From the sequence record ON185586.1: DNA of 50,477 nt. One strand, written 5' to 3'. This DNA is from Escherichia phage EC125. A program made the translations under genes and the position numbers. The notes under the pieces were generated by a model that made no database searches, had not been told where the DNA came from, and worked only from the letters and a program-made list of their open reading frames with translations. Every line of letters begins with the position of its first letter. The first letter of the stretch is position 1. Of the stretch, positions 28,832 through 48,457 are shown piece by piece.

Positions 28832-28841
28832 CTAGTCACCT

Positions 28842-28862
28842 CATAGCATTTTTTGTTAAAAC
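28842..28862 (+). promoter_or_regulatory. 21-bp element with promoter-like module upstream of helicase
   Basis: CATAGCATTTTTTGTTAAAAC then TATTAT 22 nt after TTGTTA. Confidence 0.55.
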
Positions 28863-28918
28863 AGTTTATTGTAATGAGTCTATTATATACTCCAAATGGC
28901 ATTTTTTAAAGGTTTAAG

Positions 28919-36176: not shown

Positions 36177-37753
36177 CCCAGCAGTATTGGATTGACAAAA
36201 ATAACACCATTAATCACACAAACATAATTTCTCTCTTCCAGCATTGGCAGTAAGTGCCCTTCTATCCTTTTCATTACGCCAGCCTGACCAACGAAAGGTT
36301 TTACCTTTCTCGCTGATTCGTACAGGGCGCGGATATTCAGAATCCCTTTATTAGCCTTGCCGTGCCTCGTGATCAATTCAATCAATTTACCCATTTCAGC
36401 ATCATCACCAGCATAACCAGAAGCATTGGCGGCGCTAATGTATGTTTTGCTCAATTCCTGAAACATGATCAACGCCTCTTGCATTGTTTCCACGTCGATC
36501 TCTTTCGACTTCTGCGGGTATCCGGCAGGATTAAACCAGTTACGGATAACATGCAGGACGGAAGCAAGCCTGATCACCTGTTTATCAATTTTACCCAGCG
36601 CACCGCGTAACATTGTATGAGAATACTTTCCTCCGTCTGCAAGATGCGGTTCCATATCCTGGCGAGCAATGTTGAGCACTCGCATAGCTGAACGGCTTAT
36701 TTTCAGCGATATATTTGATTCGCTCATGATGTTATGCACCAATTGATAATATTGGGCTTTCAATTCAGAATCCACCGCCTCATAGGTAGAATCACCATTT
36801 TCATCAATGAATGAGCGACGGCCTAAGAATGATTCCTCTCGGACCAACAAAAAACGCTCACTAACACCGATTCCTCGCGATCCAGCGTCCATGATTCCGC
36901 TTATCGTTTCATCCTGGGCTATGACGCTCATACATCCAAGCGCGCGAAAACTCATATTATTGTCAGCATTAGCACGGGCAATTGATACGTGACCATTATC
37001 CCACGCCTTAAGCACTAACTCACTGTTAGTCTTCCTTTCGCTATTTGCATAGGTCAAGCCTAACAGACTGTTAATACTTGTTGCTTCATCAGATATTACG
37101 GCAAAGTTACCTTGCTTGTTGTTGATTTTCGCCAAGCCTTCTGGAGTTGTATCTGAAACAGGAAAAGTTATATCACACATTTTTTCCAGCTTTTCCTCCA
37201 GATCCTCTTTTTCCTGGTATAGAGATTCCATATCAGCGCCGGATCTTTCGCTTTTCATCTCCTTTGCAAGACCTGCCAGCTTTGCCTGTATTTTCTTTCT
37301 TTCCTTGCGGCGTTGCTCGTTGATCTTCTCAACTTCCGCAATCATCGGAGCAATAGCCATGCTGTTGATCGCAGATTTACCAGTTGACGGCGGCTGGCTT
37401 GTAACGACGTAAAGCGCAGTCGGCTGATCGGTTCCGTGATAGTCAACCGTAAAGCGTCCAAGCATAGCGGCAGAAATGCAGCCGATAAAGTGCATGTAAG
37501 CCGATGATTCAGGGAATTGAACGGATCGCGCAATGCTGCGTGATAACTTGCCGACAACATCAATATCATTACCAAGAGAAATAACGGGGTAGCGATCGTG
37601 ACCGCTATTCACATCCTTTACGTCGCCCCAAAAGCTGGACGACTGGCGATAGCCGTTAGCCTGAATTGATACGCGAACTGGCGAAAGGTTCTGGCTTTCA
37701 GCCATAGCGATTATTTGTTGTGGAGTTAATTTGTTCGTTTCTAATGAAAACAT
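36173..37753 (-). CDS. large hypothetical protein with deviant P-loop (possible DUF3987-type replication NTPase)
   Basis: 526 aa; ...SQPPSTGKS...; AGGAG RBS; family assignment from memory only. Confidence 0.45.
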   Translation of the reverse strand: MFSLETNKLTPQQIIAMAESQNLSPVRVSIQANGYRQSSSFWGDVKDVNSGHDRYPVISLGNDIDVVGKLSRSIARSVQFPESSAYMHFIGCISAAMLGRFTVDYHGTDQPTALYVVTSQPPSTGKSAINSMAIAPMIAEVEKINEQRRKERKKIQAKLAGLAKEMKSERSGADMESLYQEKEDLEEKLEKMCDITFPVSDTTPEGLAKINNKQGNFAVISDEATSINSLLGLTYANSERKTNSELVLKAWDNGHVSIARANADNNMSFRALGCMSVIAQDETISGIMDAGSRGIGVSERFLLVREESFLGRRSFIDENGDSTYEAVDSELKAQYYQLVHNIMSESNISLKISRSAMRVLNIARQDMEPHLADGGKYSHTMLRGALGKIDKQVIRLASVLHVIRNWFNPAGYPQKSKEIDVETMQEALIMFQELSKTYISAANASGYAGDDAEMGKLIELITRHGKANKGILNIRALYESARKVKPFVGQAGVMKRIEGHLLPMLEERNYVCVINGVIFVNPILLG

Positions 37754-37805
37754 TCGTTAGCTTCTCCTTTGTGGGCCGTAAATTTTAACGGCCCAATACT
37801 ACCCC

Positions 37806-37826
37806 GTTTTGTCAAAAAGTGCTATT
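37806..37826 (-). promoter_or_regulatory. 21-bp element with promoter-like module upstream of 526-aa gene (leftward)
   Basis: variant with TTGACA; hairpin GGGCCG...CGGCCC; TAAAAT. Confidence 0.5.
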
Positions 37827-38043
37827 TGATCCGCTCTATTGCAACCAGGAGTCGATCAGGCTGGCGGTCGCTGTAGCATTCTCCTGTAATCCCATCCTTA
37901 AACGTAAAGTAAAGCGCCTTATGATATGAAAAACCAATCAGCCAACCTACCGCCGTTTTTTTGATGGGCCTGACTATATCGCCAGGCTTGAAAGTCTTTG
38001 TGGTAGAATGCGTTACTTTGTAACGGTTTTCACTGTTTATCAC
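37822..38043 (-). CDS. hypothetical protein
   Basis: 73 aa; apparent GTG start overlapping upstream stop. Confidence 0.4.
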   Translation of the reverse strand: MINSENRYKVTHSTTKTFKPGDIVRPIKKTAVGWLIGFSYHKALYFTFKDGITGECYSDRQPDRLLVAIERIK

Positions 38044-38426
38044 AGATATTTGCCCTCAAACAGATAACAGCCGCCAGCAGAGAATCCGACCTCTTCACGG
38101 TACATGTTCCAGCGGTCGCCGCACTCATCAAAAACATAACCCGCAACGCTTCCAAGCGGTCGCCCTTTCTCGATCTGGTATCGCTTGCCCTGCTTAAAGT
38201 GCTTTTTGCACGGCATGTTATGATCTACAAACGTGCAAAGAACGGTCTTTGTGTTAATGGAGCGGTAATCATCTCGGTTTGCTGGAAGCCAACGGCTACC
38301 CTTAACAAGCGTCTTAACCTGGAACTCTTCCACCTCGATCATATCATTACTTCCTGCAATCTTCTGATAAACCGTTTTAAAACGGCCTTTCATCAATACG
38401 TTGGTTTCATTACAGATAACATTCAT
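38040..38426 (-). CDS. hypothetical protein
   Basis: 128 aa; AAGGAG RBS. Confidence 0.5.
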   Translation of the reverse strand: MNVICNETNVLMKGRFKTVYQKIAGSNDMIEVEEFQVKTLVKGSRWLPANRDDYRSINTKTVLCTFVDHNMPCKKHFKQGKRYQIEKGRPLGSVAGYVFDECGDRWNMYREEVGFSAGGCYLFEGKYL

Positions 38427-38480
38427 GATTAGATCTCCTTTGTTTGTTCGATGTGATTATGCCAGGTTTTTACACCTGGC

Positions 38481-38500
38481 TTTTAACAAAAAGTGCTATT
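38481..38500 (-). promoter_or_regulatory. 21-bp element with promoter-like module (leftward)
   Basis: overlaps stop of C5-MTase gene; hairpin CCAGGTG...; CATAAT. Confidence 0.55.
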
Positions 38501-39206
38501 TTGAGTTTGACTCAAAGACTGCGCGAGCAAAGCCGCGCGGAGTGAGGGAGCGGATCATCTTTGTGCGCGATGACTTGCCGCCAGTTTTGGCCCAGCCTGG
38601 ATTATCTTTGTCTTCCTCTTTCGGCAGGATTAAAGCGCGTGGAGGAATAACAAAGCCGTTGCCAGTCCAGAGGCACGTTTTCTTAAAATAGCGATCACGC
38701 GCCGGAATAATATCAGGGAAGTCGGGATGTTTATCATCTTCCGGCAGATAGCCAGCGTAATCGCACGGATGGAACGTATAATCAGGCTTACGCCATAACG
38801 TTGACAACTTGCCAACCGGATTTTCGATCATGTAAGGAACACCGAAATAATCAGCTATATCAGCCGCGATTCTGCAAGTGTCGGCGGCCTCATCCTGGAA
38901 CGATGGATTCTCAAGGCGTTTTTTGACCCAATGGCGAGATCCGCTATTTGCAAGGTCGGTGCAAGGAGGGAACGCCATAATAAAATCAGGATTGCCCCAC
39001 TCATTATTGATTGCCTTAACATAAAAAGCATCATCAATCCAGACGTTAACGTATTCGATATTCTCATGCTGTATGCGCACTGACTGGTAATCACCGTGAT
39101 CGCCACCGTCAGCATTAAAGCAAATGCACTTATATCCATTATCAGCCCAATCTTTAACGGCTTTACCAGATCCATCAAATAGGGAGAATATTAAACCTTT
39201 ATACAT
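38496..39206 (-). CDS. DNA cytosine-C5 methyltransferase
   Basis: ATG at 39206 chosen for RBS spacing; motifs LFDGSG (SAM binding), FPPC (catalytic Cys), ENP (ENV-like). Confidence 0.7.
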   Translation of the reverse strand: MYKGLIFSLFDGSGKAVKDWADNGYKCICFNADGGDHGDYQSVRIQHENIEYVNVWIDDAFYVKAINNEWGNPDFIMAFPPCTDLANSGSRHWVKKRLENPSFQDEAADTCRIAADIADYFGVPYMIENPVGKLSTLWRKPDYTFHPCDYAGYLPEDDKHPDFPDIIPARDRYFKKTCLWTGNGFVIPPRALILPKEEDKDNPGWAKTGGKSSRTKMIRSLTPRGFARAVFESNSK

Positions 39207-39216
39207 CGTCATTACC

Positions 39217-39441
39217 TCAAAACGGAAAACAGCGCGGACAACCAGGATCGAAATCGCATCCACAATCATTAACAATCATAGTGGGATCTGCAAATATTGC
39301 GCTTGATTCAAGATCCATATCCATATCACCTAAAGCCTCATCAAGACTCTTAATTTTATATGCCACTTCAAGCGCCGCCTCTTTATTTAGTCCGGCATCT
39401 TCTGCCATTTGAAGGCGCTCAAAAAATCCGTCTTGACTCAT
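39217..39441 (-). CDS. hypothetical acidic protein with C-terminal Cys cluster
   Basis: 74 aa; D/E-rich; ...CGCDFDPGCPRC... Confidence 0.45.
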   Translation of the reverse strand: MSQDGFFERLQMAEDAGLNKEAALEVAYKIKSLDEALGDMDMDLESSAIFADPTMIVNDCGCDFDPGCPRCFPF

Positions 39442-39554
39442 CGTATAATCCCCTTAATAACAGCCAATATAATAGCCAGGCCAGCAGCAGTAACCAAAAA
39501 GCCAACCGCGCCAATAATCGAATAAAAAAAGAAATCAATAGCCTTATCTATCAT
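39438..39554 (-). CDS. small hydrophobic membrane protein (38 aa, not in ORF track)
   Basis: ATG after GAGGTGGAA; MIDKAIDFFFYSIIGAVGFLVTAAGLAIILAVIKGIIR; stop overlaps next start (ATGA). Confidence 0.4.
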   Translation of the reverse strand: MIDKAIDFFFYSIIGAVGFLVTAAGLAIILAVIKGIIR

Positions 39555-39595
39555 TTCCACCTCATTTAAAAGGCGGCAAAACGCCGCCATATTAA

Positions 39596-39823
39596 TTAAA
39601 GAGCACGCCAACTTTGAATATAGAAAGCGTTTTCTTCCAGTAATTCTTTTAACTGATCTTTATTGTATTTGCGCACCTTACCGCCTGGATGGATACCAAT
39701 AAGATAGCCGCCTTTGCCCTCGGTGATAGTGATTTGGCTAATTCCACAAGACTTATCAAGTTTTACAGCCACGCGGTGATGAGCGTCAATAGTTGACATA
39801 ATGTTTAAAACTTTTGCTTTCAT
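39596..39823 (-). CDS. hypothetical protein
   Basis: 75 aa; GAGGA RBS. Confidence 0.45.
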   Translation of the reverse strand: MKAKVLNIMSTIDAHHRVAVKLDKSCGISQITITEGKGGYLIGIHPGGKVRKYNKDQLKELLEENAFYIQSWRAL

Positions 39824-39930
39824 TTAAATATCCTCAATTGAAATATGAATGGCGTCGTGCTCTTTTTCCGTCGCCGCCGTAATGGTCATTTGCAACCGCT
39901 ACCATCCAGGCATTTTGAAAATAAATAGCC

Positions 39931-40143
39931 TCATTTCTTATTTTTCATCTTAAATTTATGGCCTGGAACACCGGCACCAATATAGCCATCGTTGTATTCC
40001 ATTAAATAAAGGTGAAGGCCATTATCTGAAATTACATGAGGATCTTCTTTGAGATTTCCCATTAGCGGGTATTCTTTTCCGCGCGTAAATCTCCAAGTTG
40101 AGTTATAAGTTTCTACGCATTTAAGTTTTAATTGCTTTGCCAT
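39931..40143 (-). CDS. hypothetical protein
   Basis: 70 aa; GGAG RBS. Confidence 0.45.
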   Translation of the reverse strand: MAKQLKLKCVETYNSTWRFTRGKEYPLMGNLKEDPHVISDNGLHLYLMEYNDGYIGAGVPGHKFKMKNKK

Positions 40144-40385
40144 TAGATGATCTCCATGTATGTTTCAAAGCCATTTAACTTGAACAGGCCGTTTTCACAT
40201 TTGCGAACGTTCCAAGTTAGCCATGAGTGGTACGCCTCCATATCATCAAGGTCAATGGTTATTTCAGCACCTTTCTTAAACAAACCTTTTTCGTGAGACT
40301 TGTCGCGCTTAACAACTTTAACATCAACCTGATTTTCCATCTTTAAATCCTCGTTTGTTGTCGATGCGCTTACTATACCAATCAT
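40143..40385 (-). CDS. hypothetical protein
   Basis: 80 aa; preceded by motif-type promoter. Confidence 0.45.
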   Translation of the reverse strand: MIGIVSASTTNEDLKMENQVDVKVVKRDKSHEKGLFKKGAEITIDLDDMEAYHSWLTWNVRKCENGLFKLNGFETYMEII

Positions 40386-40396
40386 CAGCGCATCGT

Positions 40397-40416
40397 TTTT
40401 AACAAAAAGTGCTATT
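40397..40416 (-). promoter_or_regulatory. 21-bp element with promoter-like module (leftward)
   Basis: overlaps upstream stop; TATAGT at fixed distance. Confidence 0.55.
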
Positions 40417-40679
40417 TAGTCCAGAAATTCGATTTCACGCTCTCCAGTTAACGGATCTACAAGCCAGAATCCGAGCGGTTCGCCGTGAACACCGCCATAG
40501 AATCCAAGAGCCGTCAGATCTTCACCTTTAACGAATACCAGGTTTCCGCTACGGCTTACGTGAGACACGTTAACGATAACCGGAAATGTGCGAGCCTTAA
40601 ATGCAGGCCGCAGGGCGTAACACCCGTTATTGAGCAAACGTGCTTTGCGCTTAACTGGAATAGGTGCATTAATTTTCAT
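40416..40679 (-). CDS. hypothetical protein
   Basis: 87 aa; AAGGAG RBS. Confidence 0.45.
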   Translation of the reverse strand: MKINAPIPVKRKARLLNNGCYALRPAFKARTFPVIVNVSHVSRSGNLVFVKGEDLTALGFYGGVHGEPLGFWLVDPLTGEREIEFLD

Positions 40680-40905
40680 GGTTATTACTCCTTATCGTAA
40701 AGATTTAAAGACGTATAGTTTATTGCGGTAACTATATATCCGCATTGTTATTTCTCGCAGCGCAATATATTCCTTCCTGTTTTCCGGCAGACTGGCGAGC
40801 AACAACAGGCAGTATTTATAAGCGCGGTCAAGATTCCTTTCCGTGCCCCTGCAATATCCCTTATTGCTCCTGGAGCGGTACAGCCATAACAATTTCTTGA
40901 ACATT

Positions 40906-41115
40906 TCAGATCCGCCCATACAGATCGCAAACTTCGTTGATAAAACAGCGTTGAGACTCTTTATCCTGCTTCTCAAACATCGCACGGCACTCATAGCGGT
41001 GATTATGCACGATGACAACAACCATATTTTCAGGCGCTGACGGGTGACGCGCGGAAGCGTCGCAGATTGAAACATCCATACCCATCTCATGTGCTTTCTT
41101 GATCACATCCAACAT
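40906..41115 (-). CDS. hypothetical protein
   Basis: about 69 aa; ATG at 41115 after AGGAG; preferred over overlapping 132-aa ORF 40692-41090. Confidence 0.4.
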   Translation of the reverse strand: MLDVIKKAHEMGMDVSICDASARHPSAPENMVVVIVHNHRYECRAMFEKQDKESQRCFINEVCDLYGRI

Positions 41116-41369
41116 TTTTTCTTCTCCTGCAATAAGCAAACATCATTGATAAAATCAGCACGGCCCTTAATGTTGCTGATGTGGAACGTCTTTTCAGCGT
41201 ACAGGCCATCACCTTCAATCACGATCATTACGCTAGTCGGTTTATTCACGGGCGCACGAGAAAAGGGTTGGCGCACCGGAAGAAATTTAGTCATCACATC
41301 CAGGTTAGACCTGGCGGCCCTGCAAAATGCCTCCGCCAGATCCAAATCATTTTCTGTAATCACCGCCAT
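41103..41369 (-). CDS. hypothetical protein
   Basis: 88 aa; AAGGAG RBS. Confidence 0.45.
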   Translation of the reverse strand: MAVITENDLDLAEAFCRAARSNLDVMTKFLPVRQPFSRAPVNKPTSVMIVIEGDGLYAEKTFHISNIKGRADFINDVCLLQEKKKCWM

Positions 41370-41641
41370 TACTTTTTGATCTCCTTACTGATAAATTTCA
41401 GCACCTGGCGCAAGTAAACTTCGTTGTTGATAGTCGCTGGCAATTCTTCTTTCACTTCTTGCGGCAGATAGATATTGCCGTGCCAGGTCAAGCAATCGTA
41501 GTTGATACGATAAGAGCAAAGCCACTCGCAATCGTTATCTGCTTCCCAAATGCAGAGTTGCAGAACATCGCCAAAATCTTCAACAGTCAGTTCCAGACCG
41601 TGACGCTTAGCGAAATTGAAAGTGGTTTTGCTGATGTTCAT
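41369..41641 (-). CDS. hypothetical protein (first gene of leftward early operon)
   Basis: 90 aa; preceded by motif-type promoter at about 41702. Confidence 0.45.
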   Translation of the reverse strand: MNISKTTFNFAKRHGLELTVEDFGDVLQLCIWEADNDCEWLCSYRINYDCLTWHGNIYLPQEVKEELPATINNEVYLRQVLKFISKEIKK

Positions 41642-41701
41642 TTACTATCTCCTGAGCGGTTCGTTTCGATGTGTGTAATGTACCCGATCAGGTGGCATGA
41701 G

Positions 41702-41721
41702 TTTTAACAAAAGGTGCTATT
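41702..41721 (-). promoter_or_regulatory. 21-bp element with promoter-like module heading the leftward early operon
   Basis: variant ...CACCTTTTGTTAAAAC; TACATT at fixed distance. Confidence 0.5.
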
Positions 41722-42275
41722 TGACGGTTATCGCCAGGATTGCGATCGAAATAATCAAAAGTAATCATTAGTAATCAAATCACGTCAAAATGATGATTGC
41801 CTTTGCAAATTTGATGAGAAAAGCAATCACGTTTAATCATTGGTTGCAGGGGAGATAGTGAAACCTTCCCCTCTTGCCTCACTTTTCCGCCTGGCTGTCA
41901 GCGGTTGTTGTCTTTTGTTCACCCCTGTTACCGATTTCAGGCGGCGTGTTTCCGCGCGGTTTTCCGGTGTATCGAAAACGGAAAAAACAAAAAAAATCCT
42001 TTATAATACATTGAAAATAAAGATTATTTATTTATATATATCTATAATGTTTTCTTTTTGTTCTCACTGTTACAGTGCTTTTTGTTGGGTGTGGTGTGGT
42101 TGTGTGTTGGTATATATGGATAGTTGCGCGCGCGGCGGATTGCATATGTATATATACTTTTTCCGGCGGATTGCGTTAACAGCGTGAACAGAAAAATAAC
42201 AGCCCTGAAATCAATAACTTGCGCATGATTTTGTAGTTTTTCGATATTGGTAACGTTTTGAATACAACAAAAACA

Positions 42276-42303
42276 TTGACACGCACCAAATAGCTTTTAT
42301 AAT
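42276..42303 (+). promoter_or_regulatory. near-consensus sigma70 promoter (TTGACA-16-TATAAT) for the rightward early operon
   Basis: hexamers read directly; homologous in layout to the promoter at 21627. Confidence 0.55.
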
Positions 42304-42334
42304 GCGCCAACAGTCAACAACTGGAGGAAAGGAA

Positions 42335-42799
42335 ATGGAACAGAAGACCACTAAGGACTATTGCGATTGGCTTCGCGAGCTTGGTCGCCGCCTGGCTAGT
42401 GGCGATATTGAAGAGTATAAAATGTCACTAATTGACCTGGCCGGAATGTTAAGCGGTGACGACTGCTACAAGATCACGCGCAGTTCATCCTACAGCCGGA
42501 CCATTATCAACCGCGTTCCAGAAGTAAGGGCCGCAGGTCGGGTAAGCATCAAGGTAGAGGAAACGGAAGATGATAAATTTTACGTTTTCCGCATGGTCCG
42601 CGAATCGAAAAGGAAAATCATCACACCCGAAGAATTGCCAGCCATCAAGGCAAGGGCGATCAAAAAGTTTGCCGATCGCATACTGGCAGCAATCCCGAAT
42701 ATCGTGGACCTGGAAGGGGATAAACTGGCTGGGGCTTGCGAGGGCGTAAGCCGCTACCAGGATATGATCCGCGAAATCATCAAAGAGGAAGAGCAATGA
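42335..42799 (+). CDS. hypothetical protein (first gene after strong early promoter)
   Basis: ATG at 42335 after GGAGGAAAGG; about 154 aa. Confidence 0.5.
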   Translation: MEQKTTKDYCDWLRELGRRLASGDIEEYKMSLIDLAGMLSGDDCYKITRSSSYSRTIINRVPEVRAAGRVSIKVEETEDDKFYVFRMVRESKRKIITPEELPAIKARAIKKFADRILAAIPNIVDLEGDKLAGACEGVSRYQDMIREIIKEEEQ

Positions 42800-43068
42800 A
42801 AAAGGCATTAATCAGCGTTTTGGCGGCAATGGCATTCCTGACCGGATGTAAAGAAGATGGCGCGCATGTTGGCAATGTGCAGATGGCTAACCCTGGCGAT
42901 GACTACAGCGTAAGGGAGCTATTCACCGCTGACGGTTGCACCGTTTACCGATTCTATGACGATCGCACTGTTTACTTCACCAACTGTAAGGGCACGACTA
43001 GCTGGGAAGTGTCGAAAAGCAATGGCAAAGGCACGAAGACAGAACATATGACCGTCGAGACAAAATAG
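42796..43068 (+). CDS. small lipoprotein (second candidate superinfection-exclusion factor)
   Basis: ATG at 42796 overlapping upstream stop; signal peptide with lipobox LTGC; CTVYRFYDDRTVYFTNC. Confidence 0.5.
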   Translation: MKKALISVLAAMAFLTGCKEDGAHVGNVQMANPGDDYSVRELFTADGCTVYRFYDDRTVYFTNCKGTTSWEVSKSNGKGTKTEHMTVETK

Positions 43069-43084
43069 CACTTTTTGTTAAAGC
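43064..43084 (+). promoter_or_regulatory. 21-bp element with promoter-like module
   Basis: overlaps lipoprotein stop TAG; CATAAT at fixed distance. Confidence 0.55.
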
Positions 43085-43162
43085 TCGAAAACGATAACCA
43101 GGCATAATAAATCACATAGGGCGGCACGGCGTCGCCCACAAAACCAATCAGGAGAAAGCACC

Positions 43163-44056
43163 ATGTTAAAACTTGCTGACATTAAATTCCCGATCACCTT
43201 CGAATCTCGCGGCATTGGTCATTACATTTTTACTGATGAAAAAACATGCCATAAAGTTGATCTTCATAGCTACAAGCGTGCGCCATCAGACATGGAGATT
43301 GAACACTTTATTGATGCGCACAATACGCAGTACAACGCACTTAAAGACTATGGCTATGCAATGCCAGGCTACACATGTTTGCACTACAAGCCATATAAGG
43401 GCCAAGTTTTACCAGTGCGCTCACCGGAACGCGCAGAGATTCCGATGGTTCATATGAAAACCTGCGACTACAAAAAGCTGTGGTGCTTAAGTCTGGACAA
43501 TATCAAGTATCCGATCACGTTCCGCACGACTGCTAAGTCAACGATTCGCTACACATCGCGCGAAAATGGCGTTTATAGCGATGGTACGAAATCAGGGTTG
43601 AAAGTTGATTTCTTTGTCAACGGTCACAATAGATACAATCCGCACAACGAAGAGGATAAAGTGTACTACGTGGAAGACATTACAAAACACTTATTTGGAG
43701 AAACTCCATTCGGCGGCGGTAAGACGTCAATTCAAAAAATCATTGGCGATGAGATCCACAAAGCGGCTGCCGAAATGAAAGCGCCTGGAGGCTGGCGTAT
43801 TGACAAGAGCGCATTTGCAAATCAAGAAATCGTAACGCAGGGCGCAATTGAAGATATGCCAGTTGCAGCCACTCTAAAAGGAGTCCGGCTTGATGACGGC
43901 ACCTGGTATGAAGTAACGGCTACACCAAAGACGATCGAGATTCATGATGACGTTGTTATCCTTCTGCTTCACTACGGCGGCTATAAAAACCGGACGATTG
44001 CAGGTGAGATCAGCATTAAGCGCGGAACGATGGTTAAGTGGAAGGTGAAGATTTGA
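43163..44056 (+). CDS. hypothetical protein with internal duplication
   Basis: 297 aa; LADIKFPITFESRG... repeated as LDNIKYPITFRTTA... Confidence 0.5.
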   Translation: MLKLADIKFPITFESRGIGHYIFTDEKTCHKVDLHSYKRAPSDMEIEHFIDAHNTQYNALKDYGYAMPGYTCLHYKPYKGQVLPVRSPERAEIPMVHMKTCDYKKLWCLSLDNIKYPITFRTTAKSTIRYTSRENGVYSDGTKSGLKVDFFVNGHNRYNPHNEEDKVYYVEDITKHLFGETPFGGGKTSIQKIIGDEIHKAAAEMKAPGGWRIDKSAFANQEIVTQGAIEDMPVAATLKGVRLDDGTWYEVTATPKTIEIHDDVVILLLHYGGYKNRTIAGEISIKRGTMVKWKVKI

Positions 44057-44132
44057 GTTTTCTCACTGCGGCGCACGTCGCCGCATGGATCGGATTGTTT
44101 TCCTACCTGTTTAGCTTTTATTGAGGTGAGAG

Positions 44133-44285
44133 ATGGCTACCTGGATTTTGCTGATTCTTATGATTGATGGCGGCGTTGACAATATCGAAATGAATAGCCA
44201 GCAATCTTGCATTGAGGCACGAGAGCAGATCAAGAACAACAACAGGTTTTATGCGTACACTCACACGCTATGTATTAAGAAATAG
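44133..44285 (+). CDS. small membrane protein (50 aa, not in ORF track)
   Basis: ATG after GAGGTGAGAG; MATWILLILMIDGG...; stop TAG lies inside motif copy at 44281. Confidence 0.35.
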   Translation: MATWILLILMIDGGVDNIEMNSQQSCIEAREQIKNNNRFYAYTHTLCIKK

Positions 44286-44301
44286 CACTTTTTGTTAAAA
44301 C
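44281..44301 (+). promoter_or_regulatory. 21-bp element with promoter-like module
   Basis: overlaps stop of 50-aa ORF; TATAAT 21 nt after TTGTTA. Confidence 0.55.
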
Positions 44302-44354
44302 TCAAATGTGGGTCCAGGTATAATGGCCTCACTTTCAACGAAGGAGATAAAACG

Positions 44355-44576
44355 ATGTACATTAAAAAGAAGATGAAATGCGTTTCCGTTAACTATGCTT
44401 GCTCTGGCATGTTCAAGCCTGGCGAAATCTATACGGCGCAAAAACTGAAAACATCAACCGGATCTTTTTACGTGAGCAATAGTAAGGGGCATCGCATGTT
44501 CCTGAACGGCGGCGAAGGCACTAAGGTTATGGCACACGCTATGGTATTGGCTGAATTTGAGGAAGTGAAACAATGA
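44355..44576 (+). CDS. hypothetical protein, tandem paralog 1
   Basis: ATG after AAGGAG; shares ...FYVSNSKGHRMFLNGGEGT...AEFEEVK pattern with next ORF. Confidence 0.5.
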   Translation: MYIKKKMKCVSVNYACSGMFKPGEIYTAQKLKTSTGSFYVSNSKGHRMFLNGGEGTKVMAHAMVLAEFEEVKQ

Positions 44577-44818
44577 TCATTGAAAACAATTTTCTTTGCG
44601 TTAAGAGCAATAGACCATTCTTCACACCTGGCAAGGTGTACCAGGGCAAGAAGGACACAAGAGATGGTCACTCTTATCATGTTCACTGCAACAACGGATA
44701 CAAGTTTTACCTTAACGGCGAGAATGGAACTGAGATTGTTGCGTTTGAAAACGTAGTTGCCGAGTTCGAGCAGATTACAGACGCGGAATTTGAGGAAGTG
44801 AAAGATGAAAACAAATAA
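44573..44818 (+). CDS. hypothetical protein, tandem paralog 2
   Basis: 81 aa; ...YHVHCNNGYKFYLNGENGT...AEFE...AEFEEVK; ATGA overlap. Confidence 0.5.
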   Translation: MIIENNFLCVKSNRPFFTPGKVYQGKKDTRDGHSYHVHCNNGYKFYLNGENGTEIVAFENVVAEFEQITDAEFEEVKDENK

Positions 44819-45026
44819 GCGCGTCAAGCACAGGTTTACTGATAACCACGGCGACGCGATTGATGTATACAAGTTCGGCGATCGCGTGTTTATTGATGGC
44901 ACGTTTGAAGGTGGTCGTAGGCCGGATTTTAGGTCGATACTTACCGTTGACCAAGTGCGCAAGCTGGCAGATAAGTTAAATGATCTGGCAGATGAAATAG
45001 AATACAAGCAAATCCATTTTAATTGA
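44805..45026 (+). CDS. hypothetical protein
   Basis: 73 aa. Confidence 0.45.
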   Translation: MKTNKRVKHRFTDNHGDAIDVYKFGDRVFIDGTFEGGRRPDFRSILTVDQVRKLADKLNDLADEIEYKQIHFN

Positions 45027-45037
45027 TAGGTTTTATA

Positions 45038-45748
45038 ATGAAAAAATACACTTTCGAACTATGGGGCAATAAGTACGAATTTACGACAAGCAAGCCTATT
45101 GTTGTGTGCGATCTCGACGGCACACTATCGGACGGATCGCATCGTTTGCATTTGCTGCCAACTGAAAACTTACACCTTACGGAATCGTGGAGCGAATTTA
45201 ACAGGGCCGCCGCCGGAGATTCACCGATTAAAAGCACGATCGCGGTTATTAACGGTTTATGGGTGTCGGGATTTGCCATCGTCATCTTGACCGGACGCAG
45301 CGACGAGGTTCGCTACGAAACCTGCAAATGGTTGAATGAGAACGGCGTGAAGTTTGACGAAATCATCATGCGCCGCCAGGATGACAACCGAAAGGATACG
45401 GTTATTAAAGAGGAAGCCTTGCGCGCTATTTGCCTGGACAACATTGTTTGCGCCTTTGACGATTCGCCGAACGTGGTTAAGCACTTCCGCAGCTTGGGGA
45501 TCACAACCTATCAGGTCACGGAATACGACAAGCCACACGCTCACATACAATCTCACGGCGTGGAATCAATAAAGATCACGAAGCGCGCCCGATTCGTCGG
45601 CAGCAAAGACAGCCTGGTTAATGCCAGCTTTATCAAAGGCAAGGTTTATGATGTTAATAGCCATGATAAAAACCGATTCTTTTTGTGGGATGAAAAAGGT
45701 TTTGGCTGGTGCTTTGAACACGACGACGGCGATTTTGTTAATGCGTAA
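45038..45748 (+). CDS. HAD-superfamily phosphatase (putative nucleotidase / polynucleotide 3'-phosphatase)
   Basis: ATG at 45038; motif VVCDLDGTL (DxDGT), later ILTGR and FDDS; about 236 aa. Confidence 0.55.
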   Translation: MKKYTFELWGNKYEFTTSKPIVVCDLDGTLSDGSHRLHLLPTENLHLTESWSEFNRAAAGDSPIKSTIAVINGLWVSGFAIVILTGRSDEVRYETCKWLNENGVKFDEIIMRRQDDNRKDTVIKEEALRAICLDNIVCAFDDSPNVVKHFRSLGITTYQVTEYDKPHAHIQSHGVESIKITKRARFVGSKDSLVNASFIKGKVYDVNSHDKNRFFLWDEKGFGWCFEHDDGDFVNA

Positions 45749-45767
45749 TAGCACTTTTTGTTAAAAC
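45747..45767 (+). promoter_or_regulatory. 21-bp element with promoter-like module
   Basis: overlaps stop of HAD phosphatase; hairpin GGGCTT...AAGCCC; TATAGT. Confidence 0.55.
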
Positions 45768-45822
45768 ATCTTAACGGGCTTGCGGTATAGTAAGCCCATC
45801 AACAACAAGCGAGGATTAAATC

Positions 45823-46086
45823 ATGGCTAACAAGATCGAATTTTTCAAAGCGGTAGACATTATTGATGGCGCTCCTAGCTTCTTTGCCATCCATTCCATT
45901 GACGGCAAGGATATTGGGTACAACGTTATCCGTCGAGATGGAATCTCAAAACTTAGCGATCTGGTAGGGAATATTGTGTCAAACGGGAAATGCGCATGGC
46001 CCGATTCGCCACGAGAGCCACGCCGCCGCGACATGGTAGAGCCTGTTCTGCTTTACACTCTGGTAGTAGAAGGAGAAAATAAATGA
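45823..46086 (+). CDS. hypothetical protein
   Basis: 87 aa; GAGGA RBS; preceded by motif-type promoter. Confidence 0.5.
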   Translation: MANKIEFFKAVDIIDGAPSFFAIHSIDGKDIGYNVIRRDGISKLSDLVGNIVSNGKCAWPDSPREPRRRDMVEPVLLYTLVVEGENK

Positions 46087-46327
46087 TTTGGTTACTTGCT
46101 TTTTTGGTTGTTTTTCTTTACATTTAAGGCTTGTTTACGTTCCGCGCGTTGGTGAAATATTCTGACGCGACAGACAAAGACGATAAAATCGTTCTCGCTT
46201 TCTGGTTTGTTTGGGTGTGGTTAGCAATTTACGAGATCATCAGAGACAAACAGAAATTTGAGTGGTGATTCTTGCTATGGCGCATTCATGCAGTGCGCCA
46301 TGTTGAGAAAACCTAAATGGGGAGACG

Positions 46328-46477
46328 ATGCGTAACTTTGAAAAAATCATTACCAAAAAGAAGCGTCGCGGGTACGATGAGCATGTGGAGCTTGTGAAAA
46401 AGCAACGCAAGAAGCGCAACGAAGACAAGAAGCGCGGGAAAAAATTTAATGCGATTTTTCGCTATGGAGATCATTAA
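46328..46477 (+). CDS. small highly basic protein (49 aa, not in ORF track)
   Basis: MRNFEKIITKKKRRGYDEHVELVKKQRKKRNEDKKRGKKFNAIFRYGDH; GGAG 3 nt upstream. Confidence 0.3.
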   Translation: MRNFEKIITKKKRRGYDEHVELVKKQRKKRNEDKKRGKKFNAIFRYGDH

Positions 46478-46479
46478 TC

Positions 46480-47070
46480 ATGAAGCGAGACATTATCATC
46501 CTTAATGGGCCGCCAGGTTGCGGGAAGGACACTATTGCAGCTTACCTAACGGGCCATCGTTACCCAGCGGTTAAGGCGTCATTCAAACAGCCGATGTTCG
46601 ATATTGCGTTTTCCATGCTTGGCCCGACTCGATATGATGAGTTTATTGACCTGTACAACGACCGAGAGCAAAAAGAAAAGCCTCAAGTTATCTTAGGCGG
46701 CAAGTCACCTCGACAATTCATGATCTGGATTAGCGAGGATGTAATGAAGCCAGTCTTTGGGGAGCAGTATTTCGGGCGTCGAATGGTTGAAAAGATTAAC
46801 GAGATGTACCGAGATTTGGCGGTTGTGATCAGTGATGGCGGATTCCCCGAAGAAATCAAGCCGCTTGTTAAGGCAGGGCATGAAGTGCATATTTGCCGAT
46901 TGCATCGCGACGGCTTCACGTTTGCTGGCGATTCGAGAGACTACATTGACCTGAGCGGTTATCACTATAGAATCCATCACTATGACTTCCACTTGCAGGA
47001 CGGCAAGCCGGAACTGGCTGTAAACGAGATCGTCAATGCTGTCAAATGGAAGCACACACAGATTAAATAG
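46480..47070 (+). CDS. P-loop kinase (resembles T4 gp1 dNMP-kinase family; nucleotide or polynucleotide kinase)
   Basis: 196 aa; Walker A GPPGCGKDT; family assignment from memory of the GKDT-type P-loop. Confidence 0.5.
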   Translation: MKRDIIILNGPPGCGKDTIAAYLTGHRYPAVKASFKQPMFDIAFSMLGPTRYDEFIDLYNDREQKEKPQVILGGKSPRQFMIWISEDVMKPVFGEQYFGRRMVEKINEMYRDLAVVISDGGFPEEIKPLVKAGHEVHICRLHRDGFTFAGDSRDYIDLSGYHYRIHHYDFHLQDGKPELAVNEIVNAVKWKHTQIK

Positions 47071-47086
47071 CACGAATTGCTAAACG
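47066..47086 (+). promoter_or_regulatory. 21-bp element (variant AATAGCACGAATTGCTAAACG) with promoter-like module
   Basis: overlaps kinase stop TAG; TATAAT at fixed distance. Confidence 0.5.
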
Positions 47087-47140
47087 CGGGGCGCAATGCC
47101 TCGCTATAATGCAAACACCAATCAACGAGAGGAAACAATC

Positions 47141-47542
47141 ATGGTGGAGTTAAACGACATTCGCGTTGGAACAAAATTTCGCGTAACCTGGGCAGATAAA
47201 TATTGTGGCGTTAGCAAGGGCCAGGTTGTTGCGGTGGATAGTATTTATCGTGGTGTTAGTGGTGACTTTTGCCGTCCGCGCATCAATAATGGCTATATCA
47301 TTACTCGCCGTATTGGCTTTGATAATTATTGCGTAGTGGCGACTCAAGGAGTTTTGATTGAGCTTAAGAGAATCAGCGATCATCTCGGTCGTCATGTTAA
47401 GGCAATGAAAACACCATTTCAGCGAGCGAGATACGATGCGCGACGTATGCGCCGACTTGCGCGAAATGCGATCAAGTTCAAAAAGCCTGGCGATGATTTT
47501 TACGGCATGTATAAGGGGATTGCGCGCAATGCTGGGAAATAA
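47141..47542 (+). CDS. hypothetical protein
   Basis: ATG at 47141 after GAGAGGAAA; about 133 aa; preceded by motif-type promoter. Confidence 0.5.
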   Translation: MVELNDIRVGTKFRVTWADKYCGVSKGQVVAVDSIYRGVSGDFCRPRINNGYIITRRIGFDNYCVVATQGVLIELKRISDHLGRHVKAMKTPFQRARYDARRMRRLARNAIKFKKPGDDFYGMYKGIARNAGK

Positions 47543-47641
47543 CAATAACGCAACGAATCCTAAGCCACCTTTTGATTTTCATTCCGCAATGATTGCGGTA
47601 TTATCAATGCTACTTTTTCTTTATAGCATGAGGGCGCTACT

Positions 47642-47890
47642 ATGGTTTTTAACGCATTGAAACGACTGTTTAAGCCGGAATACCGGATCGTATTTTGCCG
47701 CGACTGTTCTACTTATCATGTGCAGCGACGCAGCTTAGGCGGCAATTGGCACTATGTTACAGACGACTTTTTCGGCATCATTGCCACTGAATTTAAGTAT
47801 TACAGCGATGCTTATATGTACGTCAAGAAGCGCCACCGCTTACGCAAGTGTCGTTTTTCCGTGCTGATTCACGTTAATGATTGTTACTGA
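47642..47890 (+). CDS. hypothetical protein
   Basis: 82 aa. Confidence 0.4.
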   Translation: MVFNALKRLFKPEYRIVFCRDCSTYHVQRRSLGGNWHYVTDDFFGIIATEFKYYSDAYMYVKKRHRLRKCRFSVLIHVNDCY

Positions 47891-47897
47891 GGTGAAA

Positions 47898-48080
47898 ATG
47901 AAAACTGGTATTATTATTCTTTTCCTGATTTTTTTCGGCAGTCATTTAACCATTAACTATGAGGGCATTATGGCCTTTTGGGGCAACTTGATGATGTTTG
48001 TCGCTGGTTCAATTGCTGGCTACTCTGACGGGAAAAAGGATGGTGTGCGCAAGATGCTGATGGGGCTTAAACAAAAATAA
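47898..48080 (+). CDS. small membrane protein
   Basis: about 60 aa; two hydrophobic segments; GAGG RBS. Confidence 0.4.
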   Translation: MKTGIIILFLIFFGSHLTINYEGIMAFWGNLMMFVAGSIAGYSDGKKDGVRKMLMGLKQK

Positions 48081-48091
48081 GGGGATATGAA

Positions 48092-48382
48092 ATGGCAAAC
48101 AAAACTTACCGCAAGCTACTGGTTAACGCTTTTGAAAACATCGCGCAGTGTAACAAGTGGAACGACTCTAAACACTCGCCAATCACAATGAAGCGCGCCG
48201 GATTCAAAAATACTCGTTCATGGGCGCGAGCTTTCGCAGCTTGCTATATGCCGGATGGCGGACTAGGGGTGATGAACGATTTTTTGATCAACATGATAGA
48301 GGAAGCGGCGCGAGAGGATCGACCGCTGACACAGCGAGATTTTGACGGCTTCGCGCGCGATGAGCTTTACTATCTGAGTTAA
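48092..48382 (+). CDS. hypothetical protein
   Basis: 96 aa; stop overlaps motif copy. Confidence 0.5.
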   Translation: MANKTYRKLLVNAFENIAQCNKWNDSKHSPITMKRAGFKNTRSWARAFAACYMPDGGLGVMNDFLINMIEEAAREDRPLTQRDFDGFARDELYYLS

Positions 48383-48401
48383 TAGCACTTTTTGTTAAAA
48401 C
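48381..48401 (+). promoter_or_regulatory. 21-bp element with promoter-like module
   Basis: overlaps stop TAA; hairpin AAGGGCA...TGCCCTT; TAAAGT. Confidence 0.55.
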
Positions 48402-48457
48402 TTCCGCAAGGGCATTTGGTAAAGTGCCCTTATTGAAGCGAAACAGAGGAAAGCGCA

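What the first reader, a model, noticed from the sequence alone, without database searches (positions are those of the whole stretch)
42796..43068. Second small lipoprotein, encoded in the first early operon
A 90-aa protein with lipobox LTGC and a two-Cys motif (CTVYRFYDDRTVYFTNC) is the second gene after the strong early promoter at 42276. A phage carrying two unrelated lipoproteins suggests two different envelope targets, for example receptor masking and another exclusion or lysis-timing function. Early expression would suit protecting an infected cell from superinfection or from debris-bound phage.
Basis: partly seen in the sequence, partly recalled or inferred. Interest (0 to 1): 0.5.

Follow-up and report, generated by a model that had tools for sequence, protein, structure and literature searches.

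The report
Early phage DUF4884 outer-membrane lipoprotein
A T1-like coliphage makes, from its strongest promoter, a small envelope-anchored lipoprotein of a widespread, uncharacterised, mostly phage-borne family; it is separate from the phage's receptor-blocking and lysis lipoproteins, and its exposed part is swapped like a cassette between near-identical phages.

Summary
Window 42796-43068(+) is a real 90-aa gene with a canonical lipoprotein signal (MKK, hydrophobic core, LTG|C18). It has an invariant Cys48/Cys64 pair. It is the second gene after the only 12/12 sigma-70 promoter in the 50-kb genome, a Warwickvirus of the Drexlerviridae, close to phage EC195.

It belongs to Pfam DUF4884, with about 1,800 50%-identity clusters. 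Every context I inspected was an array of small early genes in a phage or prophage.

The phage has three lipobox proteins, not two:
- a Cor-like one in the receptor-binding locus (20914-21183, minus strand);
- the u-spanin (34951-35343);
- this one.

The mature domain resembles Cor, Llp and Rtp45 in neither sequence nor fold. The AlphaFold2 model is a six-stranded beta meander with no PDB match.

The gene is decoupled from the receptor module. Phage FritzSarasin shares 98-99% identical receptor-locus proteins and flanking genes, but its DUF4884 is only 46% identical. The breakpoint falls right after the lipobox, and a natural N/C chimera exists.

Best reading (inferred, about 0.4): a periplasm-facing outer-membrane lipoprotein acting as a stand-alone, receptor-independent exclusion or competition effector. 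The function is untested. Interest is moderate.

The parts
42276..42303 (+). Consensus sigma-70 promoter TTGACA-16 nt-TATAAT that drives the two-gene unit
   Evidence: It scores 12/12. It is the only perfect match in the 50,477-bp window on either strand.
42335..42799 (+). First gene of the unit: DUF7174 protein, 154 aa, with no signal peptide. Its TGA stop overlaps the ATG of the lipoprotein gene.
   Evidence: Pfam PF23796 scores 173 bits. The gene sits next to DUF4884 only in Drexlerviridae.
42785..42789 (+). Shine-Dalgarno sequence GAGGA, 6 nt upstream of the ATG at 42796
   Evidence: Read directly from the sequence.
42796..43068 (+). DUF4884 lipoprotein gene, 90 aa plus the TAG stop
   Evidence: ORF list; Pfam PF16225; homologues.
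42796..42846 (+). Signal peptide, residues 1-17. The lipobox L15-T16-G17 is followed by the lipid-attachment Cys18 (42847-42849). Residue +2 is Lys.
   Evidence: Read directly from the sequence. 153 of the 171 sequences held at that point keep a lipobox, and Asp at +2 occurs in only 9 of those 153.
42847..43065 (+). Mature domain, residues 18-90. AlphaFold2 predicts a six-stranded antiparallel beta meander. Residues about 39-66 form the conserved core; the N- and C-terminal strands vary.
   Evidence: AF2 model with mean pLDDT 78.9; alignments.
42937..42987 (+). The C48...C64 motif (CTVYRFYDDRTVYFTNC). The two Cys bracket the beta3-beta4 hairpin and probably form a periplasmic disulfide. The second Cys pair found in about two thirds of relatives is absent here.
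   Evidence: C48 and C64 are invariant. Mature-domain Cys counts are 4 in 100 and 2 in 46 of the 153 lipobox-bearing sequences.
42837..43095 (+). Cassette-like variable segment relative to phage FritzSarasin. Nucleotide identity is 88-100% per 40-nt window (mostly 95% or more) up to about 42836, which is the end of the signal peptide. It then collapses through the mature domain and resumes at about 43060-43095.
   Evidence: Sliding-window identity on a MAFFT alignment; protein identities.
43065..43082 (+). One copy of the Drexlerviridae intergenic direct repeat ATAGCACTTTTTGTTAAA. It overlaps the TAG stop and marks the end of the two-gene unit.
   Evidence: The window holds 18 copies against 0.56 expected by chance. 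The element was described for phage TLS in PMC11447400.

Best explanation
Shown:
- The gene encodes a member of the DUF4884 family.
- The branch sampled here is carried by phages and prophages of Gram-negative bacteria, in their arrays of small early or accessory genes.
- In this Warwickvirus it is the second, translationally coupled gene of a two-gene unit. That unit is driven by the genome's only perfect sigma-70 promoter.

Inferred from sequence rules:
- The protein is made within minutes of infection by unmodified host RNA polymerase.
- It is exported by Sec, lipidated at Cys18 and cut by signal peptidase II.
- Because residue +2 is Lys rather than Asp, Lol moves it to the inner leaflet of the outer membrane.
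- DsbA then closes the C48-C64 bond across a beta hairpin.
- The product is a roughly 7.7-kDa six-stranded beta sheet hanging below the outer membrane, facing the periplasm.

Inferred function: it is a stand-alone envelope effector that works by binding. The invariant central hairpin is the scaffold or common contact. The variable edge strands, which are shuffled by recombination, set the specificity.

The most likely role is exclusion of, or competition against, other phages at a step that does not depend on this phage's own terminal receptor. One example would be intercepting incoming tail-tip or ejection proteins, or another outer-membrane or periplasmic entry factor. The Cor-like lipoprotein in the receptor-binding locus handles the phage's own receptor.
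For: The gene and the family are real.

Lipoprotein signal: the lipobox is kept in 153 of 171 sequences, and Asp at +2 occurs in only 9 of those 153. C18, C48 and C64 are invariant.

Expression signals: the unique 12/12 promoter, the SD sequence and the ATGA overlap.

Phage-borne and stand-alone:
- All inspected contexts are phage or prophage arrays of small genes. Some sit next to Lar, Gad2, NinX or queuosine genes.
- No neighbouring gene is conserved across lineages.

Not the cognate receptor blocker:
- A Cor-like lipoprotein sits in the locus downstream of gpJ.
- DUF4884 is present in phages with other receptor modules. Examples are JeanPiccard, for which PMC8594841 proposes LptD as the terminal receptor from resistance mutations, and Rtp, which also carries the SE lipoprotein Rtp45.

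Diversification of an arms-race type:
- FritzSarasin has 98.5-98.9% identical receptor-locus proteins, 99.3% identical DUF7174 and 90-96% identical downstream genes. Its DUF4884 is only 46% identical.
- The left breakpoint falls just after the lipobox, and the right one at the intergenic repeat.
- No alleles lie between 60% and 90% identity.
- P0002 is a chimera. Its N-part matches the FritzSarasin allele at 43/44 positions, and its C-part matches the window allele at 22/26.

Precedent: Llp and Rtp45 are about 6-kDa, disulfide-bonded periplasmic lipoproteins that act by binding (PMC9586334; bioRxiv 10.1101/2025.07.07.663478).
Against: - There is no functional data for any DUF4884 protein. Only two papers mention the name, both in tables.
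- The mature domain shows no sequence or fold similarity to any exclusion protein.
- The invariant core is shared by phages of Escherichia, Serratia, Pseudomonas and Xanthomonas. That fits a conserved host target at least as well as a competitor-phage target.
- Early regions of these phages are mosaic in general, so the allele swap could partly reflect a recombination hotspot bounded by the repeat.
- T1 itself lacks the gene, and one metagenomic variant (P0004) has a disrupted mature domain. It is therefore dispensable.
- Early timing, lipidation, outer-membrane sorting and the disulfide are all predictions.
- The AF2 model is of moderate confidence (pLDDT 78.9, pTM 0.49).
Confidence: 0.4

Rival explanations
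1. Host-envelope takeover or anti-defence effector. The lipoprotein binds a conserved host periplasmic or outer-membrane component, for example an envelope biogenesis machine, an envelope-stress sensor or an envelope-located defence. It benefits the phage's own cycle rather than excluding other phages.
For: - The central core (L42 F43 G47 C48 Y51 R52 F53 D55 Y60 C64 G77 K78) is nearly invariant across phages of distant Proteobacteria.
- The genes sit in early arrays beside known counter-defence genes: Lar_restr_allev and Gad2.
- It is expressed first, from the strongest promoter.
Against: - Phages isolated on the same E. coli K-12 host, with near-identical genomes, carry alleles that are only 46% identical, and recombinant chimeras exist. 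That is unexpected for a single fixed host target, unless only the core matters.
- There is no hit in PADLOC and no hit to any known anti-defence family.
- T1 does without it.
Confidence: 0.25
2. Cognate receptor masking of the Cor, Llp or Rtp45 type. The lipoprotein would bind the periplasmic face of this phage's own terminal receptor, stopping re-adsorption to infected cells and debris.
For: - The general build is the same: a small, disulfide-bonded lipoprotein with predicted outer-membrane sorting and predicted early expression.
- Llp and Rtp45 work this way.
Against: - The gene lies 22 kb from the gpJ/RBP locus, which has its own Cor-like lipoprotein.
- Its sequence does not track the receptor module. 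Identity is 46% against 98-99% in FritzSarasin, and there are further examples.
- It occurs in phages with different receptor modules and in myoviruses and large Pseudomonas and Xanthomonas phages.
- There is no mature-domain similarity to Cor or to the Rtp45-like protein.
Confidence: 0.07
3. Lysis-related role. The lipoprotein would tune lysis timing, restrain the u-spanin or endolysin, or protect against lysis from without.
For: - It is envelope-located, and the phage's lysis system also uses a lipoprotein, the u-spanin.
- Periplasmic inhibitors of phage lysozymes are known, for example T4 Spackle (my own knowledge).
Against: - It is not in or near the lysis cassette, which lies at 34245-35343.
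- It is predicted to be made first rather than late.
- It is found in phages with unrelated lysis systems and has no conserved neighbour.
Confidence: 0.08
4. Dispensable passenger with no measurable role under laboratory conditions. It would be a mobile small gene kept by recombination in mosaic early regions.
For: - The distribution is patchy: T1 lacks it.
- One variant has a disrupted mature domain (P0004).
- It sits in a highly mosaic region bounded by a repeat.
Against: - The core and the lipobox are strongly conserved over about 1,800 clusters.
- It occupies the prime position behind the strongest promoter, with a good SD sequence.
Confidence: 0.05

Closest known systems
Llp of phage T5 (superinfection-exclusion lipoprotein that binds FhuA; PMC9586334)
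   Same: - Small phage-encoded lipoprotein with one intramolecular disulfide.
- Periplasm-facing; Llp is expressed early (my own knowledge), and early expression is predicted here.
- Acts, or is proposed to act, purely by binding.
   Different: - No sequence hit to any PDB chain, including Llp entries, and no fold match.
- Llp is encoded next to its RBP gene and is matched to FhuA. This gene is 22 kb from the RBP locus and does not track it.
- It belongs to a different family (DUF4884).
Cor of T1, phi80 and N15 (FhuA-blocking exclusion lipoprotein; NCBIfam NF047972)
   Same: - An outer-membrane lipoprotein of T1-like phages of similar size.
- The signal peptides align (hhalign, residues 1-27 only).
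   Different: - The mature domains are unrelated.
- The Cor-like position and a weak Cor similarity belong to another gene of this window, 20914-21183.
- T1 has Cor but no DUF4884.
Rtp45 of phage Rtp (SE lipoprotein that binds LptDE at the periplasmic outer-membrane interface; bioRxiv 10.1101/2025.07.07.663478)
   Same: - A lipoprotein of about 6 kDa with a single disulfide, from a Drexlerviridae phage.
- Partly binds through a beta-strand pairing with its target. That mode would also be open to an edge-exposed beta sheet.
   Different: - Rtp carries both Rtp45 (at the RBP locus) and a DUF4884 homologue, rtp3 (at the genome's left end). The two are therefore distinct functions.
- The profile matches the Rtp45-like protein of JeanPiccard only over the signal peptide.
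Ltp of Streptococcus thermophilus phage TP-J34 (lipoprotein that blocks DNA injection by binding the incoming tape-measure protein; my own knowledge, not checked here)
   Same: This is the functional model for the favoured reading: a membrane-tethered lipoprotein that excludes other phages at a step after receptor binding, independent of the phage's own receptor.
   Different: - Ltp is from a Gram-positive host and a prophage, and has a helical repeat fold.
- No homology is expected, and none was tested.
Pfam DUF4884 (PF16225)
   Same: - The window protein scores above the gathering threshold, and all 22 close relatives hit the model.
- Some GenBank phage records already annotate the homologue as a 'DUF4884 domain-containing protein'.
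   Different: - The Pfam model aligns only to the N-terminal two thirds (positions 3-35 of 49).
- The one cellular member met here, Bacteroides thetaiotaomicron BT_3183, was detected in a proteomics study. Its genomic context was not examined, so the relation between the phage branch and the Bacteroides members is unresolved.
- The family has no assigned function.

Membership tests
Pfam DUF4884 (PF16225) | Whole-protein HMM score at or above the gathering threshold of 30 bits | tested here: met
   31.8 bits, E 1.2e-7. All 22 members of alignment A2 hit the model, best E 7.4e-10.
Pfam DUF4884 (PF16225) | Small protein of about 80-90 aa sharing the core DGC-x-V-Y-R-F ... Y-F-T-N-C | tested here: met
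   C48, C64, F53, R52 and Y60 are invariant or nearly so across 137-150 relatives. The profile finds 1,795 representatives.
Bacterial lipoproteins (signal peptidase II substrates) | Positively charged n-region, uncharged h-region, lipobox [LVI][ASTVI][GAS]C, with the Cys at residues 15-35 | tested here: met
   MKK-ALISVLAAMAF-LTG-C18, read directly. The same signal is present in 153 of the 171 sequences held at that point.
Bacterial lipoproteins (signal peptidase II substrates) | Actual Lgt/LspA/Lnt processing (globomycin sensitivity, acylation) | not testable with these tools
   This needs an experiment.
Outer-membrane (Lol-sorted) lipoproteins of Enterobacteria | No Asp at position +2 (Lol-avoidance rule; established knowledge) | tested here: met
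   Residue +2 is Lys and +3 is Glu. Asp at +2 occurs in only 9 of 153 lipobox-bearing sequences. Localisation itself was not tested.
Cor exclusion lipoproteins (NCBIfam NF047972) | Match to the Cor model over the mature protein | tested here: not met
   No Cor hit at E<=1 for the target. The other lipoprotein (20914-21183) gives E 0.012 over its full length. hhalign against T1 Cor aligns only residues 1-27.
Receptor-matched SE lipoproteins (Cor, Llp, Rtp45) | Encoded in or next to the RBP locus downstream of gpJ | tested here: not met
   gpJ is at 16414-19992 and the RBP locus at 20019-21183. The target is at 42796.
Receptor-matched SE lipoproteins (Cor, Llp, Rtp45) | Sequence co-varies with the RBP or receptor type | tested here: not met
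   In FritzSarasin the RBP-locus proteins are 98.5-98.9% identical and DUF4884 is 46% identical. DUF4884 is also present in JeanPiccard (LptD proposed as receptor) and in Rtp.
Receptor-matched SE lipoproteins (Cor, Llp, Rtp45) | Sequence or fold similarity to solved Llp or Rtp45 structures | tested here: not met
   - The PDB sequence profile search gave no such hit at E<=10.
- The best Foldseek PDB match had E 0.45.
- hhalign against the Rtp45-like protein of JeanPiccard matched the signal peptide only.
Spanins (o-spanin or u-spanin) | Located in the lysis cassette; a u-spanin has a C-terminal transmembrane helix | tested here: not met
   - The lysis cassette is at 34245-35343, with its own lipobox-plus-TMD protein at 34951-35343.
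- The target has no C-terminal hydrophobic segment.
PQQ-like beta-propeller blade (BamB-type) | Significant profile similarity to a propeller blade | tested here: not met
   - Hits to the designer 'Cake' propellers are sums of identical repeats at about 5.7 bits each, with per-repeat E about 100.
- hhalign against E. coli BamB gives probability 1.7%.
- There is no PQQ Pfam hit.
Known anti-phage defence proteins (PADLOC-DB) | Match to any PADLOC model | tested here: not met
   No family matched at E<=1 for the target or for four homologues.

The most novel reading that the evidence does not exclude
DUF4884 would define a new, very widespread class of phage envelope effectors in Gram-negative hosts. 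These are immediate-early, outer-membrane-tethered mini beta sheets with a fixed disulfide-braced core. Their edge strands are exchanged between phages as cassettes. They would intercept incoming competitor phages in the periplasm (tail-tip, tape-measure or ejection proteins), or block a shared entry factor. That would be receptor-independent superinfection exclusion, a Gram-negative counterpart of Ltp, and different alleles would exclude different competitors.
Probability: 0.15. Interest if true: 0.7.

Novelty: new variant of a known kind. Interest (0 to 1): 0.42.

Why it matters
Small phage lipoproteins such as Llp, Cor and Rtp45 are so far understood only as blockers of the phage's own receptor, and they are encoded beside the receptor-binding protein. 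This gene is a third lipoprotein in the same phage, unrelated in sequence and fold to those blockers. It is expressed from the best promoter and is independent of the receptor module. Its family runs to about 1,800 sequence clusters, and every sampled context was a phage or prophage.

If the family proves to be an exclusion or host-takeover factor, it would:
- assign a role to a common 'hypothetical protein' of T1-like and many other phages;
- bear on the design of phage cocktails, because co-applied phages could exclude each other;
- offer a minimal, naturally modular periplasmic binder scaffold.

The allele swap in near-isogenic BASEL and Warwickvirus phages provides ready-made material for a clean experiment.

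Tried and rejected
1. Beta-propeller blade idea. The PDB sequence search gave E down to 5e-15 against the designer 'Cake' propellers. Each repeat contributes only about 5.7 bits, and the total comes from nine identical repeats. hhalign against E. coli BamB gave probability 1.7%, and Pfam gave no PQQ hit. Rejected.

2. Fold assignment.
- Foldseek against the PDB on the better model gave a best E of 0.45.
- BFVD returned only family members.
- The afdb50 library was unavailable.

3. Guilt by association. All-against-all BLAST of ORFs around 15 DUF4884 loci found no partner conserved across lineages. DUF7174 is a neighbour only in Drexlerviridae.

4. Domain fusions. The longer family members (137-289 aa) carry only DUF4884. 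Where the sequences were read, the signal peptide and lipobox sit internally, so most of these look like upstream read-through or mis-called starts.

5. PADLOC and NCBIfam gave nothing beyond signal-peptide-level matches.

6. T1 was searched for a homologue and none was found. The best 'hit' was Cor's signal peptide.

7. Rfam found no RNA family in 41500-43300. The overlapping minus-strand ORFs are short and unsupported.

8. Literature. 'DUF4884' occurs in only two papers, both as table entries. A search for Drexlerviridae transcriptomics turned up no time-course data.

9. dN/dS between allele classes was considered and not run. At 46% amino-acid identity synonymous sites would be saturated, and the gene is too short.
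Full report
IDENTITY OF THE WINDOW

The window is a complete T1-like siphophage genome of the genus Warwickvirus (Drexlerviridae, Tempevirinae). It has the same length and coordinates as Escherichia phage EC195 (ON185588.1). Over 36200-49200 it differs from that record at 20 positions. Fifteen of these cluster at 43046-43063, which is the 3' end of the gene in question. There the GenBank record carries a local duplication of an intergenic repeat. The window version (…EHMTVETK) agrees with the other phages.

Positions 42796-43068(+) form a 90-aa ORF. Its ATG overlaps the TGA of the upstream gene (ATGA), and GAGGA lies 6 nt upstream.

Residues 1-18 (MKK-ALISVLAAMAF-LTG-C) satisfy the classical lipoprotein signal rule. 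The +2 residue is Lys. Under the E. coli Lol-avoidance rule (established knowledge) that predicts outer-membrane sorting.

The motif C48-x15-C64 is present. TTGACA-16-TATAAT at 42276-42303 is a 12/12 match and the only perfect one in the genome. The gene is the second one downstream, after a DUF7174 gene at 42335-42799.

A copy of the Drexlerviridae intergenic repeat ATAGCACnnnTTGnTAAA overlaps the stop codon at 43065-43082. The window holds 18 copies against 0.56 expected. The element was described for phage TLS in PMC11447400. The promoter, DUF7174, the lipoprotein gene and the repeat therefore form a discrete two-gene unit.

FAMILY

The protein passes the Pfam DUF4884 gathering threshold, 31.8 against 30 bits. 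PHROGs places it only in families of unknown function.

- A word-indexed search found 23 relatives.
- A profile search of 1.84 billion cluster representatives found 1,795 at E<=1e-3 and 752 at E<=1e-10.
- A second profile search found 764, and all of the listed ones carry PF16225.
- Of the 171 sequences held at that point (hits plus the listed representatives), 153 have a clear lipobox. Asp at +2 is rare, 9 of 153.
- The distance from the lipid Cys to the core Cys is 23-35 residues.
- The mature part has four Cys in 100 of the 153 and two in 46. The window protein is of the two-Cys type.
- L42, F43, G47, C48, Y51, R52, F53, D55, Y60, C64, G77 and K78 are invariant or nearly so.

WHERE THE FAMILY LIVES

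In the phage database, tblastn finds the gene in 118 records. These cover many Drexlerviridae genera, Serratia Myosmarvirus, Erwinia and Pantoea phages, Pseudomonas phage Dolphis and the 200-kb Xanthomonas phage X1. Where annotated, the gene is labelled 'hypothetical' or 'DUF4884 domain-containing'.

Metagenomic contexts of homologues lie on contigs of 42-169 kb. They are uniform arrays of small co-directional overlapping genes. Some sit beside T4-type RNA ligase and Lar, queuosine genes, Gad2, or NinX and YAcAr.

The only hits in bacterial genomes using the exact core pattern were mostly Pseudomonas. The single Pseudomonas locus I inspected lies beside a reverse-transcriptase-like ORF, a DNA-methylase-like ORF and an AlpA-type-excisionase-like ORF. 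Those identifications are my reading of the ORF translations, and they suggest a prophage or mobile island.

All-against-all comparison of ORFs around 15 loci found no partner conserved across lineages. DUF7174 is a neighbour only in Drexlerviridae. T1 itself has no homologue. The longer family members carry only DUF4884, and where read their signal peptide is internal, so most look like upstream read-through.

THREE LIPOPROTEINS, NOT TWO

A lipobox scan found three credible genes.

- 20914-21183(-) is the last of three minus-strand genes directly downstream of gpJ (16414-19992). This is the position that the BASEL study assigns to RBPs and their cognate exclusion proteins (PMC8594841). It gives a weak full-length Cor match, E 0.012 and below threshold, and is annotated as Cor in phage Kalemo.
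- 34951-35343(+) follows holin and endolysin and has a C-terminal hydrophobic segment. It is annotated as the u-spanin in relatives.
- The third is the target.

The target shows no BLASTP similarity to the Cor-like protein. Profile comparisons with that protein, with T1 Cor and with the Rtp45-like protein of JeanPiccard align only the signal peptide.

DECOUPLING FROM THE RECEPTOR MODULE, AND CASSETTE-LIKE VARIATION

DUF4884 occurs in phages with different receptor modules. One is JeanPiccard, for which PMC8594841 proposes LptD as the terminal receptor on the basis of resistance mutations. Another is Rtp, which carries both the structurally characterised LptDE-binding SE lipoprotein Rtp45 and the DUF4884 homologue rtp3.

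Conversely, 66 phage records carry a Cor-like lipoprotein at least 95% identical to the window's. Only 43 carry a DUF4884 at least 90% identical, and no alleles fall between 60% and 90%.

The clearest case is FritzSarasin (Bas04), which belongs to the same genus. Identities to the window are:

| Protein | Identity to window |
|---|---|
| RBP-locus proteins | 98.5-98.9% |
| First leftward gene | 96.7% |
| DUF7174 | 99.3% |
| Next two genes downstream | 90% and 96% |
| DUF4884 | 46% |

At the nucleotide level, identity is 88-100% per 40-nt window (mostly 95% or more) up to about 42836, the end of the signal-peptide and lipobox coding. It collapses through the mature domain. FritzSarasin also has two extra 61-aa genes there. 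Identity returns at about 43060-43095, at the intergenic repeat.

A metagenomic allele, P0002, is a chimera. Its N-terminal mature part matches the FritzSarasin allele at 43 of 44 positions. Its C-terminal part matches the window allele at 22 of 26 positions, against 8 of 26 for the FritzSarasin allele. The junction lies at the conserved TNCKG.

STRUCTURE

With 137 sequences, AlphaFold2 gives mean pLDDT 78.9 and pTM 0.49. The model has a signal-peptide helix and six antiparallel strands in a meander: 24-29, 36-45, 48-54, 58-64, 67-75 and 80-88. A shallower alignment gave the same topology.

C48 starts strand 3 and C64 ends strand 4, which is consistent with a disulfide bracing that hairpin. 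The conserved residues fall in strands 2-4, and the variable ones in the two edge regions.

No informative structural relative exists. The apparent sequence hit to designer PQQ-like propellers is an artefact of summed identical repeats.

MECHANISM

Shown:
- a real, conserved gene of a family whose sampled members are phage-borne;
- a canonical lipoprotein signal with an outer-membrane-type +2 residue;
- a prime promoter position;
- independence from the RBP locus and from the lysis cassette;
- cassette-like allelic replacement and intragenic shuffling of the mature domain.

Inferred:
- immediate-early synthesis by host RNA polymerase;
- lipidation and Lol transfer to the inner leaflet of the outer membrane;
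- DsbA-dependent disulfide formation;
- action by binding.

The pattern of a conserved core with shuffled edges, seen in phages that share both host and receptor module, is what one expects of a protein engaged with variable partners. I therefore favour a receptor-independent exclusion or competition function (about 0.4). The precedent is lipoproteins such as Ltp that act on incoming phage components (my own knowledge).

The main rival is a host-envelope takeover or anti-defence role aimed at a conserved host component (about 0.25). It explains the invariance of the core across distant hosts.

Cognate receptor masking (0.07), a lysis-related role (0.08) and a phenotypically silent passenger (0.05) are less likely, for the reasons given under each rival.

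NOVELTY

The protein itself is already in GenBank. It is 100% identical in phages orkinos, tonn, swan01 and others, and the family has a Pfam number. No function is known, and the literature is silent.

Relative to known phage lipoproteins it is a new variant. It has the same general build as Llp, Cor and Rtp45, but a different family, a different genomic logic and a much wider distribution. Interest is moderate (0.42). It would rise considerably if allele-specific exclusion were shown.

Noticed in passing
window, 18 sites, e.g. 43065-43082(+), 44282-44299(+), 45748-45765(+), 47067-47084(+), 48382-48399(+), 41703-41720(-): The window holds 18 copies of the Drexlerviridae intergenic repeat ATAGCACnnnTTGnTAAA, against 0.56 expected by chance. 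Several copies overlap the TAG/TAA stop of the preceding gene and lie 60-80 nt upstream of the next start. One minus-strand copy heads the leftward operon. Their function (promoter, UP element or operator) is unknown and is discussed for phage TLS in PMC11447400.
   Followed up: partly
window 43046-43063 versus ON185588.1: The window and the GenBank EC195 record differ by a 15-mismatch cluster. The record repeats 'ACAAAATAGCACTTTTTGT', which changes the last residues of the lipoprotein (…EHKIALFV instead of …EHMTVETK). The window version matches other phages. The record probably contains a local assembly error at the repeat.
   Followed up: partly
window 20019-21183 (-): This is the RBP-type locus directly downstream of gpJ. 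It has a 203-aa protein, a 92-aa 'putative outer membrane protein' and an 89-aa lipoprotein (MKKLIAVIATVAALTGC…). The lipoprotein has a weak, sub-threshold full-length Cor similarity (E 0.012). It is the likely cognate receptor-blocking exclusion protein and is 98.9% identical in BASEL phage FritzSarasin.
   Followed up: partly
window 34951-35343 (+): This is the third lipobox protein (AVILSGC…). It has a C-terminal hydrophobic segment and follows holin and endolysin. It is a T1 gp11-type unimolecular spanin and is annotated as u-spanin in BASEL relatives.
   Followed up: partly
window 41642-42334: A divergent intergenic region of about 690 bp lies between the leftward and rightward small-gene operons. 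It is AT-rich and contains short palindromes (e.g. 42028-42047) and imperfect inverted repeats. No Rfam family matches. In the T1 record the equivalent place is the genome end and the start of the 2.8-kb terminal repeat, so it may hold pac or regulatory sites.
   Followed up: partly
window 42335-42799 (+): The first gene behind the consensus promoter is a DUF7174 protein (173 bits) with no signal peptide. It is translationally coupled to the lipoprotein gene. Its function is unknown. It neighbours DUF4884 only in Drexlerviridae (Warwickvirus, Rtp rtp1, JeanPiccard bas02_0062).
   Followed up: partly
L029 (FritzSarasin MZ501069.1) 28600-28986 versus window about 43004-43060: FritzSarasin carries two extra 61-aa genes (bas04_0065 and bas04_0066) inserted between the lipoprotein gene and the intergenic repeat. 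The window has none there. The repeat appears to be the right-hand boundary of the exchanged segment.
   Followed up: no
phage database hits: Records named 'Campylobacter phage' (49,946 bp, unannotated, host C. jejuni) match this coliphage: 18 records match the 1-kb early region. Their lipoproteins are 36% (DUF4884) and 52% (Cor-like) identical to the window's. They look like T1-like coliphages filed under another host.
   Followed up: no
P0004 (84 aa, on a 46-kb metagenomic contig): This variant is near-identical to the window protein (three substitutions) through about residue 40 and then diverges completely. It lacks the DGC…NC core, so it is either a frameshift or a replacement. The gene seems to be dispensable in at least one lineage.
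   Followed up: no
L021 (phage Rtp NC_007603.1) 1064-1383: Rtp annotates a 19-aa 'rtp2' immediately upstream of, and overlapping, rtp3, the DUF4884 homologue. This may be an annotation artefact around the lipoprotein start.
   Followed up: no
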